Of a stretch of DNA of 64,000 nucleotides, positions 14,682-24,072 are shown one piece after another. The notes under the pieces were generated by a model. The model worked only from the letters and a program-made list of their open reading frames with translations. It had not been told where the DNA came from and searched no databases. How positions within the stretch are numbered: the stretch's first letter is position 1; every line of letters starts with the position of its first letter. The stretch lies in assembly GCA_000002445.1 (NCBI GenBank), contig CM000207.1:2976001-3040000 (forward strand). Reading direction: 5' to 3'. The DNA comes from Trypanosoma brucei. Lineage: Eukaryota. The position numbers and the translations under genes were made by a program.

Positions 14682-16618
14682 ATGATGAAGAAACCGCGGT
14701 TTTGCCTTGCAGTACTCGTTATAATTGTATCGCTAATGGAGCGCGCAGCACCTGCACAAGAAAATTCAAAAGAATTTAGAGATTTGCGTGAGCTTTTCAA
14801 GCTTTTAAGCAAACCGATGCCGACGGTGTCAGTCAACGATCAACCACCAGGCAAGCCAGAAAATAACGTACCGATTGGACAAGCTATGAACGGCATTATC
14901 GCCAGAATCAAGAAGCTTAACCTAACCGTTTTGGAACGTGACAAGGAAGAAGTATTGAAAGACAAAACCAAATACAGCGAATTTTCAAAAATTAAAGACG
15001 ATAAAAAAGGCGGTTATTTCGAAAGCGGCGACTTCAAAGAAGTTGAGGAGATGCGCAGCGTTTATGACGATCTAACGAAGGGGGATGACAACGCAAAAGG
15101 ATTTAACTCAAAATTCGGATTGCCGCTATTGGAATACAGGAGAGCGCAGCTGAGGCCGGTGTTTGCGCAATGCGTGGAACGAGCCCTGCAACTTAAGCAG
15201 GCGGCGGCAAACTTAATAAGCCAAGCAACGACGGCAGCAGAACATGGCCAAAAAGCGGCGATCAAAGCACTCTACGGTGAAAGTTATGCGGAGAAGTTCA
15301 CAACACCAGAACAGCTTAAGCCGACAATGCCCTGGACAGAGCAGCCAGAAGCCAGCAACTTTCCCTGGCCAGCGACCGGACAACATTCAACTACCTGTGC
15401 GGGCTCACCAGCGGAAGGCAGCCCAAGAAAAGGTGGCAGCTACCTGACGACGGATATTGTATGCCGATGCGAAGGCAGCAACAGCAACACGGCCAACTTT
15501 TGTTTCTCAACTGTGTTAACCGGCTTGTCGAAGGTAGGCACTCAAGCAGTTGTACCCGGGGGCTGGAAACAAAAAATACGCGGCGAGTGCCTCAAAAGCA
15601 ACACCGAAAAGGACCCGGCGCTCGCCTCAAAAACGGTCGAAACGCAGATCACCACAATCTTTGGAAACCTTGGCAAAGGCGCAATAATCTCCGCAACGGC
15701 CCTTACTCGCAAACAACATCCGGCAGCGTGTCAAACACGATTCTGGGGGCACACGGGCTAAACAGGGGGGAACCCGAATGCGGCTGTACTCAAAATAATG
15801 GGGATGTAATAGCAGCGGCAAGCAAAGGCGTTTGCGTCAACTACAAAAAGTTGCTTGGAAGCCAGAGCGGCATACCTTGGGTGGCGGCGGCACGGTCAGT
15901 AGTCGCGAAACTTGATGAAATACAGTATATAGCACAGAAAGCAACGGCGTTTGGTAAGCGCAGCAAACGATATGGAGCAACAAAAGATAACTACGATCGC
16001 AAAAAGACCGCCCGTAGACAATGACGCATATTTGTATGGTGAACTCGTGGGAGGTTCTTCCTTTGACAACTGCCTAACACTTGAAGCCATGATACGCAAC
16101 CCCTCAAAAACGGTAGACCACCTATCTGACGAAGACAAGCAAATAAAAACAACATATTTTGGCACCGATAACAATTTACTAACAGACCTAGCAGACAGCA
16201 TAGCCAAAACAAACGCCCGGGGCACGCAAACCAAAGCAGCGACTACAAAAAAGTTAAGCGAACTAGACAACCTAGGAGGGCTACACAAAGCGTTGGCATA
16301 CGAAAGCGCCGAACTAGCCGCAACTCTGATCGCTAAACGGAAGGAGATAGAGATCTTCAGGAAAAGCGAACAAACAAAACAAAAACCACAGGGGCAAATT
16401 TGCAACAATATAACTAACCCAAAAGATTGTGGCGATAATGAAAACTGCAAATACGAAAAATATAAGACAGAAGAGCCGAAATGTGTATTGAGTAAAAGGG
16501 GCAAACAAGCAGCTAAAGAAGATAAAGTAAAGAATAAGATGGCAAGACTACGAACACCACAGGAAGAAATTCTATTGTAATTGAAGCCCCTCTATTGCTC
16601 GCATTTTTTCTTCTATAA
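14682..16618 (+). pseudogene. VSG: VSG pseudogene. The N-domain ORF 14682..15761 has signal peptide MMKKPRFCLAVLVIIVSL. Frameshifts lead into ORF 15951..16580. The GPI tail TNTTGRNSIVIEAPLLLAFFLL* lies in another frame.
   Basis: Typical VSG start and N-domain. The C-terminal domain and GPI signal are recovered only by frame changes. Confidence 0.8.
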
Positions 16619-16659
16619 TTAATTATCTAAATGATATTCGCTAAATGTCATAAAAATTA

Positions 16660-22383: not shown

Positions 22384-22444
22384 AATTATAAAAAGTTTTA
22401 AAAATTCTCCGAATAACAATTATTATAAAATTTTTATAAATTTC

Positions 22445-24072
22445 TTAACATTGAGCAAGCATTCTTAAAATTTTATAATGCAAAAATGATTCTAAATCCA
22501 CAAAAGCAGCAACCATCAGAGCCAATTTTTTATTTACGAGAAAACTTCTATTTCTGCACATTTCTTTTTCCTTGTAATCTTCATTATATTTACCTTTTCT
22601 CCATCCAGAATGCTTTTTACCATCCTTGTTTACTGCCTCACAAAATTTCTGATCCTAGTGACTAAAGCAGTCACTTTTTCCATCTTTCCCTTCTTGGTTT
22701 TCTGCCTCTTTTGCTGCTGTTTGTTTGCCTGTCTCACTCAATGTGCACTTTTTCTTGGGTCGTTTAGCTTCGCCATCCCATGTGCATTTTGGGTTTTTGT
22801 GCTGGTTGCAGTCTGGCTCTTTGTCTATGTTATTGCATTTTTCTTCGGCTTCCTCTTGTTGTTTTTTTGAGTCACCTGATGGTTTTTGAGCCGCTTGCGT
22901 TGGGCTCTGTGTTTGTTGTTTAAGCGCTTCCATAGCGTTTAGGTTTAGGAGCGTCGTTAGTGTTTCGTTCAAAGCGTGTACTTGAGCTTCCGCTATTATA
23001 GCGTTTTTCGTCTGTGCCTTTTGCTGCTCCACTTCTGCCATCGCGTCTGTTAGTCCCGTCAGCCAGGTGGGTAGCGTCACTTTGTTGGCCCCCGTTCTGA
23101 AACTCGCACATGCGCCCTTGTTGCTACCGTGTTCGCCGTCGCATGCGCCACTGCCAGTGCCTTGGATCGCGCCGAGTATTCCTATTTTGTTTTCATCGCG
23201 CTCTTTCGCGGCATAAAGTTCGGCTCTGAGCGCGGTTAGGATGCTTTGCAGCTGGGTGTAACCCAGCTTCTGGTAGTTAGGGTGGACAGCCTTGCATTCA
23301 GTTAGTATTTTGTGCCAGTCTTGTATTTCGTTTGCGGTGCCATCGAATGCCTGTGCCCCCGTGCTGGTTTCGTAGCAGCCAGTGTTTGTGGCTCCGCTGC
23401 TGCTGTCGGAGGCACATAAGCAAGCTATGGTCGCGACCACGGTCTTTGATGCAGCTGTTGCTGGTGCTGTGTTTGCCTGGCCGCAGCTTGTTTGGCGGTT
23501 CGTTTGCGCGGCGATTGTTGGCTTTTTAGGGATTGGCCCGTCTGCGCCGTATACAGCTTTGCGCAGTTTTGACGCAACATCGACGGCGGCCCCTGATGAT
23601 GCCAGGCCGGCATCTGGCAAGCCTAGTTTTTTTATTGCGTTGACTGTGTCGTTTATTTTCTGCTTGAATCCACGGTTGTCTGAGTTCGCATGGATTACCT
23701 TTTGTCGCTCGTCTTCCGGGAGACTAACGAGCCAGCTTGCTGCCTGTTTGCAAGGTGCCGCCTTTGCGGCTTTGCAACTGTCGGGAAGCTGATCGTCGCC
23801 GCTTGCGCCGCTTGGAGCTTTGCTTATTACAGCTTGCAGTTTGGCTATATCGTCTGGCTGTGCTAGAATCGCCGAAATGTGGTCTGCGGTTGTTATCGCT
23901 GCCATTTCTGCGTTAGATGGCTCTATCTTTTGGTTATCTAGTTCTGCAGCAAGTACGAGGCCGCACAGAAAACCAAAGGTTTGCCGGTTTTGTCCGGCGC
24001 TTGGGCCTGCGCTACTGACTGGTCTTGCTATCAGAAGCGCTGCTGTCGCTGCCATAGTTATTAATAACATCG
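22445..24072 (-). pseudogene. VSG: Near-intact A-type VSG. It has signal peptide MLLITMAATAALLIARPVSS, a complete N-domain and a complete C-terminal domain, interrupted by one in-frame TAG at 22653-22655.
   Basis: A 522-aa ORF (22655..24223) is followed in the same frame, after a single TAG, by CEAVNKDGKKHSGWRKGKYNEDYKEKEMCRNRSFLVNKKLALMVAAFV. Confidence 0.8.

What the first reader, a model, noticed from the sequence alone, without database searches (positions are those of the whole stretch)
16600..22450. A degenerate ingi-like element (DIRE) sits exactly at the convergence point of two oppositely oriented VSG arrays
All VSGs from 1 to 16.6 kb are on the + strand and all VSGs from 22.4 to 59.9 kb are on the - strand. 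The only sequence between the two convergent 3' ends is a roughly 5.6-kb degenerate ingi-related element. The DIRE abuts the + strand VSG about 40 bp after its stop with no intervening 70-bp repeats. On its other side it runs straight into the 3'UTR 16-mer of the - strand VSG. This is the signature of a retroelement-associated inversion or translocation breakpoint in the subtelomere.
Basis: partly seen in the sequence, partly recalled or inferred. Interest (0 to 1): 0.55.

Follow-up and report, generated by a model that had tools for sequence, protein, structure and literature searches.

The report
Dead retroposon between two converging VSG arrays
A 5.65-kb dead ingi-type retroposon in the Trypanosoma brucei TREU927 reference genome sits tail-to-tail between two oppositely oriented surface-antigen gene arrays and lacks the marks of a simple insertion, which makes it an ordinary example of the known link between retroposons and strand switches.

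Summary
The window is T. brucei TREU927 chromosome 9. VSG coding hits, 3'UTR 16-mers and 70-bp-repeat cores are all on the + strand up to 16.6 kb and all on the - strand from 22.4 to 59.9 kb.

The only sequence between them is one full-length degenerate retroposon, at 16665/16672-22315 on the + strand. It has a Pr77-like 5' end followed by endonuclease, RT, RNase H and zinc-finger regions. It carries 19 in-frame stops and at least 9 frame changes, and its GC is 43%. It belongs to the Tvingi/Tcoingi lineage (RT 55-56% identical), not to Tbingi (37%).

The + VSG 3'UTR is cut about 47 nt before its expected 16-mer. Only 52 nt of the - VSG's downstream flank survive. There is no target-site duplication (2-3 of 12 matches). 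The upstream endonuclease motif matches at 3 of 6 positions. Control elements show both features.

The two flanks therefore probably do not come from one target site. No partner copy is in the window, and synteny in other strains could not be tested.

Retroposon enrichment at T. brucei strand switches and subtelomeres is already published. Interest is low.

The parts
14682..16618 (+). Last VSG pseudogene of the + array. It is frameshifted, and its GPI-signal frame ends ...NSIVIEAPLLLAFFLL with stop TAA at 16616-16618.
   Evidence: Pfam VSG_B and Trypan_glycop hits; tblastn; translation.
16619..16664 (+). Truncated VSG 3'UTR. It is canonical up to ...TTATGAAA and then cut about 47 nt before the place where the 16-mer should be.
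   Evidence: Local alignment to the 3'UTRs of 10 other VSGs in the window gives z=4.4, with 0 of 300 shuffles reaching the observed maximum. The alignment ends exactly at the junction.
16665..16671 (+). Seven bases (CCTTCCG) that match neither the VSG UTR nor the Tvingi/Tcoingi 5' end. They are either junction filler or a diverged element start.
   Evidence: Alignment A1.
16665..22315 (+). Whole degenerate ingi-related retroposon (TbDIRE of the Tvingi/Tcoingi lineage), 5.65 kb, GC 43.2%.
   Evidence: Collinear with the Tvingi polyprotein from aa 38 to the C-terminal zinc-finger region at 47% identity. 19 in-frame stops in 1419 codons and at least 9 frame changes. Nucleotide hits to Tcoingi and Tvingi along its length. 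GC.
16672..16748 (+). Pr77-like '76-79 bp signature' at the 5' end.
   Evidence: GGAAGCCAAGTGCCAGCA at 16728. Alignment with the Tvingi, Tcoingi and Tbingi 5' ends. 80% nucleotide identity to Tvingi/Tcoingi over 16676-16834.
16868..17522 (+). Decayed apurinic/apyrimidinic-type endonuclease domain.
   Evidence: Pfam Exo_endo_phos_2, E=2.2e-6; tblastn to Tvingi ORF1 aa 38-256.
17827..18848 (+). Reverse transcriptase domain, spread over three frames.
   Evidence: Pfam RVT_1, E=1.8e-12. 55-56% identity to Tcoingi/Tvingi against 37% to Tbingi.
18933..20638 (+). Region homologous to the RNase H-containing part of the Tvingi polyprotein. It includes the longest surviving ORF, 19368-20249 (293 aa).
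   Evidence: tblastn to the second Tvingi ORF at 47-50% identity. That ORF carries a weak RNase_H Pfam hit in L004. The DIRE ORF itself has no Pfam hit.
20480..21957 (+). C-terminal C2H2 zinc-finger region. It is about 230-270 bp longer than in Tvingi/Tcoingi.
   Evidence: Pfam zf-C2H2 below the curated cutoff; tblastn to the third Tvingi ORF; translation.
21958..22293 (+). 3' non-coding part of the element. Its GC is 0.40-0.52, which is unlike a VSG flank.
   Evidence: GC windows. No significant similarity to the Tvingi or Tbingi 3' ends.
22294..22315 (+). Remnant of the A-rich tail (GCTAAAAATAGACTAAAAACA).
   Evidence: It aligns with the Tvingi ...GCACAATG(A)n end in A2. GC drops from 0.42 to 0.18 at this point.
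22316..22367 (-). The 52 nt that remain of the - VSG's downstream flank. This is the actual point of convergence.
   Evidence: It begins TTTTTAATGAAA like other VSG flanks. It lacks the CCTATxGGTGTAAAGxAGTAGGG motif that other VSGs carry 80-100 nt after the 16-mer. Its strand of origin is not statistically assignable.
22368..22383 (-). Perfect VSG 3'UTR 16-mer TGATATATTTTAACAC.
22445..24070 (-). First VSG pseudogene of the - array. It has an in-frame stop at 22655-22657 and has lost its canonical stop.
   Evidence: Pfam VSG_B. 93% identical to VSG 1125.1151. Translation.

Best explanation
The element is an ancient, dead, full-length ingi-clade retroposon: a TbDIRE of the Tvingi/Tcoingi lineage. 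It lies in the chromosome 9 VSG array of T. brucei TREU927, co-oriented with the left (+) array.

Its two flanks do not come from one target site. The 5' end interrupts a + VSG 3'UTR. The 3' A-tail abuts the truncated downstream flank of a - VSG. At least one of the two junctions is therefore secondary.

The most likely history is as follows. The element inserted by target-primed reverse transcription next to one VSG. A later recombination then joined a second, oppositely oriented VSG array to it, creating the tail-to-tail strand switch. That recombination was either ectopic homologous exchange with another copy of the same family, giving an inversion or a subtelomere exchange, or end-joining at its A-tail.

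Shown here: the identity, completeness and decay of the element, the orientation of the arrays, the truncation of both VSG flanks, and the absence of a target-site duplication. Inferred: that a rearrangement made the junction, rather than an insertion with deletion or long decay, and what type of rearrangement it was.

The element itself has no present activity.
For: Window identity. The VSG at 11326-12927 is 100% identical to XP_827769.1 of TREU927, on a 3,057,547-bp record.

Single full-length element. It is collinear with Tvingi at 47% aa identity and shows nucleotide collinearity with Tcoingi and Tvingi. It has a Pr77 5' end.

Decay. There are 19 stops in 1419 codons and at least 9 frame changes. 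GC is 43.2%, against 52-53.5% for Tbingi in the same window.

Lineage. The RT is 55-56% identical to Tcoingi/Tvingi and 37% to Tbingi.

Junctions:
- The + VSG UTR is canonical (z=4.4) and stops at TTATGAAA, about 47 nt before the expected 16-mer.
- No + strand 16-mer follows the element.
- The - VSG flank is cut after 52 nt and lacks the conserved downstream motif.
- Immediate flanks match at 2-3 of 12 positions. The best match in a scan of offsets is 9/12 (P=0.46), and in a wide scan 10/12 (P about 0.35).

Decay alone is unlikely to explain the missing duplication. The stop density suggests very roughly 10% substitution since inactivation, which would leave about 10 of 12 matches (my estimate).

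Controls for the test:
- Tvingi in L004 has a perfect 12-bp duplication (AAGAATGCAATA) and the TTTTxxxxxA^A motif.
- Tcoingi in L001 has the motif.
- The RIME in this window has a 9/12 duplication exactly at its ends.

Literature. ingi and RIME recombine and cause rearrangements (PMC2854126). Strand-switch regions are the most retroposon-rich compartment in T. brucei (PMC2323293).
Against: No second copy of this element, and no chimeric partner in inverted orientation, exists in the 64-kb window. There is no inverted duplication around the element.

The 5' flank matches the published ingi6 upstream motif at only 3 of 6 positions. Simple homologous exchange between two genuine insertions would have kept that motif.

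The 3' boundary is known only to about +/-20 nt, because the 3' non-coding part matches nothing.

The decay estimate is rough. AT-rich flanks also gain and lose bases.

Only one genome was examined, so neither polymorphism nor the ancestral state is known.
Confidence: 0.5

Rival explanations
1. Plain insertion into a junction that already converged. The two arrays were already tail-to-tail, the element inserted by target-primed reverse transcription exactly there, and the duplication and upstream motif have since been erased by substitutions, small indels or VSG-flank gene conversion.
For: The element is old: 47% aa identity to its active relatives and GC close to background. The flanks are 12-24% GC low-complexity DNA in which 12-mers are hard to score. 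VSG cassettes in this region do move. A T. equiperdum telomeric copy shares 87% nucleotide identity with 22778-25398.
Against: The + VSG UTR next to the element is still clearly canonical (z=4.4), and the - strand 16-mer is perfect. The flanks are therefore not decayed beyond recognition, yet the immediate flanks match at only 2-3 of 12 positions. This reading also requires the element to have hit, within 12 bp, a pre-existing fusion of two already truncated VSG flanks.
Confidence: 0.2
2. Insertion with loss of target DNA. The element inserted next to one VSG, and the insertion deleted the DNA between that point and a - strand VSG further on. Alternatively, its cDNA was captured at a double-strand break. 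No duplication was ever made. The strand switch existed before, inside the lost segment.
For: This accounts for the missing duplication, both truncated flanks, and the 7 unassigned bases at the 5' junction. Deletions associated with LINE-1 insertion, without duplications, are known in mammals (my own knowledge).
Against: The element is full length with an A-rich tail, whereas endonuclease-independent captures are usually truncated (my own knowledge). The upstream motif expected for endonuclease-dependent insertion matches at only 3 of 6 positions. There is no direct evidence for the lost segment.
Confidence: 0.15
3. Assembly artefact. Two subtelomeric contigs were wrongly joined through a repeated retroposon.
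For: Subtelomeric VSG arrays are repeat-rich and hemizygous, and retroposons are classic sites of mis-joins (general knowledge).
Against: The element has no other nucleotide-level copy in the window. It belongs to a small and strongly diverged family, with eight ingi6-type TbDIREs reported (PMC3820030), so collapse of near-identical repeats is unlikely. It is collinear with Tvingi from end to end without a break.
Confidence: 0.05
4. Selected boundary element. The retroposon is kept because it works as a boundary between the two silent arrays, for example as a transcription stop, a heterochromatin or siRNA seed, or a barrier to recombination.
For: Retroposons including DIRE are concentrated at strand-switch regions, and some such regions are functional, for example centromeric domains (PMC2323293, PMC1868937). 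ingi loci and convergent regions produce siRNAs (PMC4721609).
Against: The copy shows unconstrained decay throughout. Its Pr77 region breaks many pairs of the consensus fold, and no compensatory changes are seen. There is no Rfam hit. Nothing in the sequence points to function.
Confidence: 0.05

Closest known systems
TbDIRE (degenerate ingi/L1Tc-related elements of T. brucei), specifically the ingi6-type group called TbDIRE2 (PMC3820030 and its references 12 and 21)
   Same: About 5 kb, with a 76-79-bp 5' signature. The coding capacity for endonuclease, RT, RNase H and zinc fingers is decayed. GC is lower than in active ingi. The closest active relatives are Tvingi and Tcoingi. The location is subtelomeric.
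   Different: The published ingi6-type copies are said to be preceded by TTTTxxxxxA^A. This copy matches at only 3 of 6 positions and has no duplication. I could not confirm that it is one of the eight listed copies.
Tvingi (T. vivax, 5419 bp) and Tcoingi (T. congolense, 5404 bp), active ingi6 retroposons
   Same: Same domain order. RT 55-56% identical. 80% nucleotide identity over the first ~160 nt, and collinear along the whole length. In L001 a Tcoingi also lies downstream of a VSG in the same orientation.
   Different: Those elements have open reading frames, perfect 12-bp duplications and the upstream motif (L004, L001). The window copy is dead, 230-270 bp longer, and lacks both marks.
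Tbingi/RIME, the resident active family, and the rearrangements they mediate
   Same: Same clade and the same compartment. ingi and RIME are reported to recombine and to underlie indels between T. b. brucei and T. b. gambiense (PMC2854126). Three copies are in this window.
   Different: Only 33-45% aa identity, and no nucleotide similarity beyond Pr77. The window's RIME keeps a recognisable duplication.
Retroposon-rich strand-switch regions of trypanosomatid chromosomes
   Same: A degenerate retroposon sits exactly where coding strands change. Strand-switch regions have the highest retroposon density in T. brucei (PMC2323293). A DIRE lies in the centromeric strand-switch domain of chromosome 1 (PMC1868937).
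   Different: Those are boundaries of RNA polymerase II transcription units in chromosome cores. This one is a convergence of silent VSG cassettes inside a subtelomeric array, with no evidence of centromere or terminator function.
LINE-mediated ectopic recombination and insertion-associated deletions in mammals (my own knowledge)
   Same: Full-length elements whose two flanks stem from different loci and which lack duplications are the accepted footprint of such events.
   Different: In mammals the inference rests on comparison with an ancestral or empty site.

Membership tests
ingi-clade non-LTR retroposon | Conserved 76-79-bp signature (Pr77) at the 5' end | tested here: met
   Alignment with the Tvingi, Tcoingi and Tbingi 5' ends. 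An 18-mer match at 16728, with 0.1 expected by chance.
ingi-clade non-LTR retroposon | One long coding region with endonuclease, reverse transcriptase, RNase H and C2H2 zinc fingers in that order | tested here: met
   Pfam hits. Collinear tblastn to Tbingi and Tvingi. The RNase H region is supported only by homology to the Tvingi segment that carries the domain.
ingi-clade non-LTR retroposon | Poly(dA) tail at the 3' end | tested here: inconclusive
   Only an interrupted A-rich run at 22294-22315.
ingi-clade non-LTR retroposon | 12-bp target-site duplication | tested here: not met
   Immediate flanks match at 2-3 of 12 positions, and scans are at chance level. Controls are positive.
[quoted passage not shown] | About 5 kb, ingi-related, with coding capacity destroyed by stops and frameshifts | tested here: met
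   5651 bp, 19 in-frame stops and at least 9 frame changes.
[quoted passage not shown] | GC content lower than active ingi/RIME and drifting toward the genome background | tested here: met
   43.2%, against 52.2-53.5% for Tbingi/RIME and 41.9% for the window. The published means are 48.7, 52.3 and 41% (PMC2323293).
ingi6 subclade (Tvingi/Tcoingi/TbDIRE2) | RT domain groups with Tvingi/Tcoingi rather than Tbingi (ingi4) or L1Tc (ingi1) | tested here: met
   55-56% against 37% identity. The best database hits are all T. vivax or T. congolense. No formal tree was built and L1Tc was not compared.
ingi6 subclade (Tvingi/Tcoingi/TbDIRE2) | Upstream endonuclease motif TTTTxxxxxA^A followed by the 12-bp duplication | tested here: not met
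   With the start at 16665, the two A positions fit but TTTT reads AAAT. With the start at 16672, even less fits. The motif is present in L004 and L001.
Retroposon-mediated inversion or translocation breakpoint | The flanks of one element derive from two different target sites (no duplication, discontinuous host sequence) | tested here: met
Retroposon-mediated inversion or translocation breakpoint | A reciprocal chimeric partner element carrying the complementary flanks | tested here: not met
   No other copy in the 64-kb window.
Retroposon-mediated inversion or translocation breakpoint | The ancestral or alternative arrangement is seen in another strain or species | not testable with these tools
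   Exact-protein look-ups of window genes found no contigs. The only related contig, from T. equiperdum, is a telomeric copy whose homology ends inside the VSG.

The most novel reading that the evidence does not exclude
The element is a very old, fixed landmark. It would predate the extinction of the Tvingi/Tcoingi-type family in T. brucei, and VSG cassettes have repeatedly been recombined right up to its two ends. Dead retroposons would then act as stable seams at which whole VSG arrays are joined, inverted or exchanged between subtelomeres. If so, the handful of ingi6-type DIREs would mark the ancient block structure of the antigen archive, and they could be used to reconstruct its history across strains.
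Probability: 0.12. Interest if true: 0.5.

Novelty: already known. Interest (0 to 1): 0.2.

Why it matters
The strand organisation of the silent VSG archive affects which genes can recombine into expression sites. It also records how subtelomeres evolve. A retroposon whose two flanks come from different places is a physical trace of one such rearrangement.

It adds no new principle. Degenerate ingi-related elements have been catalogued in this same reference genome. Their concentration in subtelomeres and strand-switch regions is published (PMC2323293), as is the role of ingi/RIME recombination in rearrangements (PMC2854126).

The value of this copy is as a well-defined test locus. Checking the flanks of the other few copies of this family, or the same locus in other strains, would show whether it marks an inversion, an array exchange, or an insertion with a deletion.

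Tried and rejected
Fetching the same locus from other assemblies. Exact-protein look-ups with the intact VSG, the 293-aa DIRE ORF, and the identical NCBI protein all returned nothing.

Synteny through the T. equiperdum relative of the - VSG. The contig is a telomeric copy and its homology ends inside the C-terminal domain at 22778, so it says nothing about the junction.

Fixing the 3' end by similarity to the Tvingi or Tbingi 3' non-coding regions. Scores are at shuffle level.

Assigning the 51 nt between the tail and the 16-mer to one strand. Neither reading is significant (z=0.7 and 1.3).

Wide search for a duplication. There are several 10/12 matches, all in AT-rich UTR sequence and at chance level.

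Inverted duplication or palindrome around the element. Only short similarities between VSG C-terminal domains were found.

Hidden genes on the - strand of the element. No Pfam hits.

Known RNA families. None at gathering score, and one weak chance hit.

Conserved RNA structure in the well-conserved 5' 170 nt. There are no compensatory pairs among five sequences.

Key papers. Bringaud 2009 (PMC2756862) and Marcello & Barry 2007 are not held. The supplementary chromosome map of PMC2323293 is a figure without coordinates.
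Full report
**What the window is.** The intact VSG at 11326-12927 (+) is 100% identical over 533 aa to XP_827769.1/EAN77439.1 of Trypanosoma brucei brucei TREU927, which lies on a 3,057,547-bp record. From my own knowledge of chromosome sizes, that record is chromosome 9. The window is therefore part of a VSG array of the reference genome. This is the genome in which ingi, RIME, DIRE and SIDER elements were catalogued (PMC2323293, PMC3820030).

**Checking the observation.** Four independent features agree on the strand switch.
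- tblastn with 66 VSG proteins (58 database proteins and 8 window ORFs) gives only + hits between 56 and 16577 and only - hits between 22439 and 59901. Pfam confirms VSG domains on the corresponding ORFs.
- The 3'UTR 16-mer occurs on the + strand at 2655 and 5435, and on the - strand at nine sites from 22368 to 58257.
- The core of the 70-bp repeat is on the + strand at 2861 and 12959 and on the - strand at five sites from 35103 to 54683. There is none between 12977 and 35103. Its absence next to the element is simply what is expected downstream of a VSG.
- AT skew changes sign at about 22 kb.

The arrays are not pure VSG. A - strand RIME lies at 1253-1751. A 5'-truncated + strand Tbingi lies at 45104-47572. 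The 5' 3.1 kb of another + strand Tbingi starts at 60905. Roughly 3 of 16 VSG-VSG junctions in the window hold a retroposon, so one strand switch coinciding with one retroposon is not remarkable by itself (p about 0.2).

**The element.** It is a single, essentially full-length element.
- The region 16868-21723 is collinear with the three consecutive ORFs of an active Tvingi (locus L004), from aa 38 to the C-terminal zinc-finger region. Identity is 47% over about 1480 aligned residues (about 1420 after dropping one overlapping hit).
- It is also collinear at the nucleotide level with Tcoingi (L001) and Tvingi (L004, L005). Identity is 80% over 16676-16834 and 64-77% in most further hits, with short stretches of 31-34 nt reaching 82-87%.
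- Pfam finds Exo_endo_phos_2, RVT_1 and, below the curated cutoff, C2H2 fingers.
- The first 77 nt align with the Pr77 signature of Tvingi, Tcoingi and Tbingi.

It is dead. There are 19 in-frame stops in 1419 aligned codons and at least 9 frame changes. The longest ORF is 293 aa. GC is 43.2%, close to the window mean of 41.9% and far below the 52-53.5% of the Tbingi and RIME copies in the same window. This is the trend published for TbDIREs (PMC2323293).

It is not a decayed Tbingi. Its RT is 55-56% identical to Tcoingi and Tvingi but 37% to Tbingi. The best hits among 5.8 billion proteins are all from T. vivax and T. congolense. It shares no nucleotide similarity with the Tbingi copies in the window. 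It therefore belongs to the lineage that Bringaud and colleagues call ingi6, for which T. brucei has only extinct copies (PMC3820030).

**Boundaries.** At the 5' end, position 1 of Tvingi/Tcoingi (CCCTGG) aligns with 16672. The seven bases 16665-16671 (CCTTCCG) match neither the element nor the VSG UTR.

At the 3' end, protein homology stops at about 21957. The next 335 nt have element-like GC (0.40-0.52) but no significant similarity to the Tvingi or Tbingi 3' regions. An interrupted A-rich run at 22294-22315 aligns with the Tvingi poly(A) junction. GC falls from 0.42 to 0.18 at 22300. I place the end at 22315, give or take about 20 nt. That makes the element about 5.65 kb, compared with 5419 bp for Tvingi (PMC3820030 supplement).

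**The two junctions.** On the left, the frame-corrected C-terminus of the + VSG reads ...NSIVIEAPLLLAFFLL and stops at 16616-16618. The following 46 nt are a canonical VSG 3'UTR (z=4.4 against shuffles). The alignment to other UTRs ends exactly at ...TTATGAAA at 16664. In other VSGs of the window that position lies about 40-50 nt before the 16-mer. The + VSG has therefore lost the distal UTR and its 16-mer, and no + strand 16-mer follows the element.

On the right, the - VSG has a perfect 16-mer at 22368-22383, and 52 nt of its downstream flank remain. At least seven of the ten other VSGs carry a conserved CCTATxGGTGTAAAGxAGTAGGG motif 80-100 nt after the 16-mer. Here that position falls inside the element and the motif is absent. 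Both VSG cassettes are thus cut by the element ends. The true convergence point is the 52-bp stretch at the element's tail, because the element is co-oriented with the left array.

**Was it a simple insertion?** Elements of this clade make a 12-bp target-site duplication. The ingi6 type is preceded by TTTTxxxxxA^A (PMC3820030).

The test works on the controls:
- The Tvingi in L004 has a perfect AAGAATGCAATA duplication and the motif.
- The Tcoingi in L001 has the motif.
- The RIME in this window has a 9/12 duplication placed exactly at its ends.

For the DIRE the results are negative:
- The immediate flanks match at 2-3 of 12 positions.
- Allowing for boundary error gives at best 9/12 (P=0.46).
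- A scan of the whole 3' region gives 10/12 (P about 0.35), always in AT-rich UTR sequence.
- The upstream motif fits at 3 of 6 positions.

From the stop-codon density I estimate, roughly, 10% substitution since inactivation. That would leave about 10 of 12 matches, and the adjacent UTR and 16-mer are still well preserved. Plain decay is therefore a poor explanation. The two flanks most likely do not come from one target site.

**How it probably arose.** The most economical reading is that the element inserted next to one VSG and a later recombination brought the other array to its opposite end. There are two candidate mechanisms.
- Ectopic homologous exchange with another copy of the family. 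This keeps the element full length while swapping a flank. It gives an inversion if the partner is in cis and inverted, or a subtelomere exchange if the partner is elsewhere.
- Microhomology-type joining at the A-tail. This is a repair mode prominent in T. brucei (PMC2377438, title and abstract).

I give the rearrangement reading about 0.5. The rivals are:
- insertion into an already convergent junction followed by erasure of the marks (0.2);
- insertion with target deletion, or capture at a break (0.15);
- mis-assembly (0.05). This is unlikely because the family is small and diverged and the copy is unique in the window;
- a selected boundary function (0.05), for which the sequence gives no support.

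Points against the favoured reading are that no partner copy or inverted duplication is in the window, and that the 5' flank also lacks the motif, which exchange between two genuine insertions should have kept.

**Comparison with what is known.** The element passes the tests for an ingi-clade retroposon and for a DIRE. By similarity it falls in the Tvingi/Tcoingi lineage. It fails the duplication and upstream-motif tests, which speaks to its history rather than its family.

The general pattern is published:
- In T. brucei, 60% of retroposons are subtelomeric, and strand-switch regions have the highest retroposon density (PMC2323293).
- A DIRE lies in the centromeric strand-switch domain of chromosome 1 (PMC1868937).
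- ingi and RIME recombination is held responsible for rearrangements between subspecies (PMC2854126).

I therefore rate the finding as already known in kind, located in a reference genome that has been surveyed for exactly these elements. I could not verify that this particular copy is listed.

**What could not be done.** No tool here holds T. brucei genome assemblies or reads. Look-ups of window proteins returned no contigs. The only related contig, from T. equiperdum (L006), is a telomeric copy of the - VSG cassette. It is 87% identical over 25398-22778 and diverges inside the C-terminal domain. Cross-strain synteny, the other copies of the family, and read support therefore remain the decisive open tests.

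Noticed in passing
window 1253-1751 (- strand): A complete RIME (GC 53%, 93-97% identical to the Tbingi ends in the window) lies in opposite orientation inside the + VSG array. It is flanked by a degenerate 12-bp duplication, GTTGTCTGTGTC / GTCTTTTGTGTC (9/12). It seems to sit between or within VSG fragments at 56-775 and 1939-2559.
   Followed up: partly
window 45104-47572 (+ strand): A 5'-truncated Tbingi (positions about 2783 to the poly(A), 98.7% identical to the other copy where they overlap) lies inside the - VSG array. It keeps a 610-aa open frame with RNase H and zinc-finger hits. It directly abuts a - strand VSG whose 5' part appears to be missing. A possible duplication matches at only about 7/12.
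   Followed up: partly
window 60905-64000 (+ strand): The 5' 3.1 kb of a Tbingi with a good Pr77 start runs off the window end, about 1 kb upstream of the last - strand VSG. Whether another strand switch follows is unknown.
   Followed up: no
window 43172-43540: This is the only long 70-bp-repeat array in the window: two 72-bp units plus (TTA)85. All other VSGs have at most a single recognisable repeat core.
   Followed up: no
L006 1-2620 vs window 25398-22778: A T. equiperdum contig ending in TTAGGG repeats carries a copy of the - VSG next to the element, together with 1.2 kb of its upstream flank (87% nucleotide identity). It has a different C-terminal end and 3'UTR. The cassette therefore exists as a telomeric copy elsewhere in the T. 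brucei group, with the 3' homology limit inside the C-terminal domain.
   Followed up: partly
window 16676-16834; L004 6871-7029; L001 3871-4029; L005 214-372: The first ~170 nt, covering Pr77 plus the leader up to the start codon, are the best conserved part of the element: 80% nucleotide identity to Tvingi/Tcoingi against 64-72% over the longer coding-region hits. A consensus fold shows no compensatory changes among five sequences, so nothing can be said about RNA structure.
   Followed up: partly
L001 1771-3252 and 3867-8256: In T. congolense a Tcoingi lies about 600 bp downstream of a VSG_B gene in the same orientation and is preceded by a perfect TTTTxxxxxA^A motif. This suggests that AT-rich VSG downstream regions are natural targets for this family.
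   Followed up: no
window 14682-16618: The + VSG pseudogene next to the element gives a VSG_B hit for its N-terminal ORF and a weak A-type (Trypan_glycop) hit for the following ORF. It may be a mosaic, or simply a frameshifted gene.
   Followed up: no
window 21166-21529: The zinc-finger region of the element holds about 230-270 bp with no counterpart in Tvingi/Tcoingi. This could be an internal insertion or duplication, or a fast-diverging linker.
   Followed up: no
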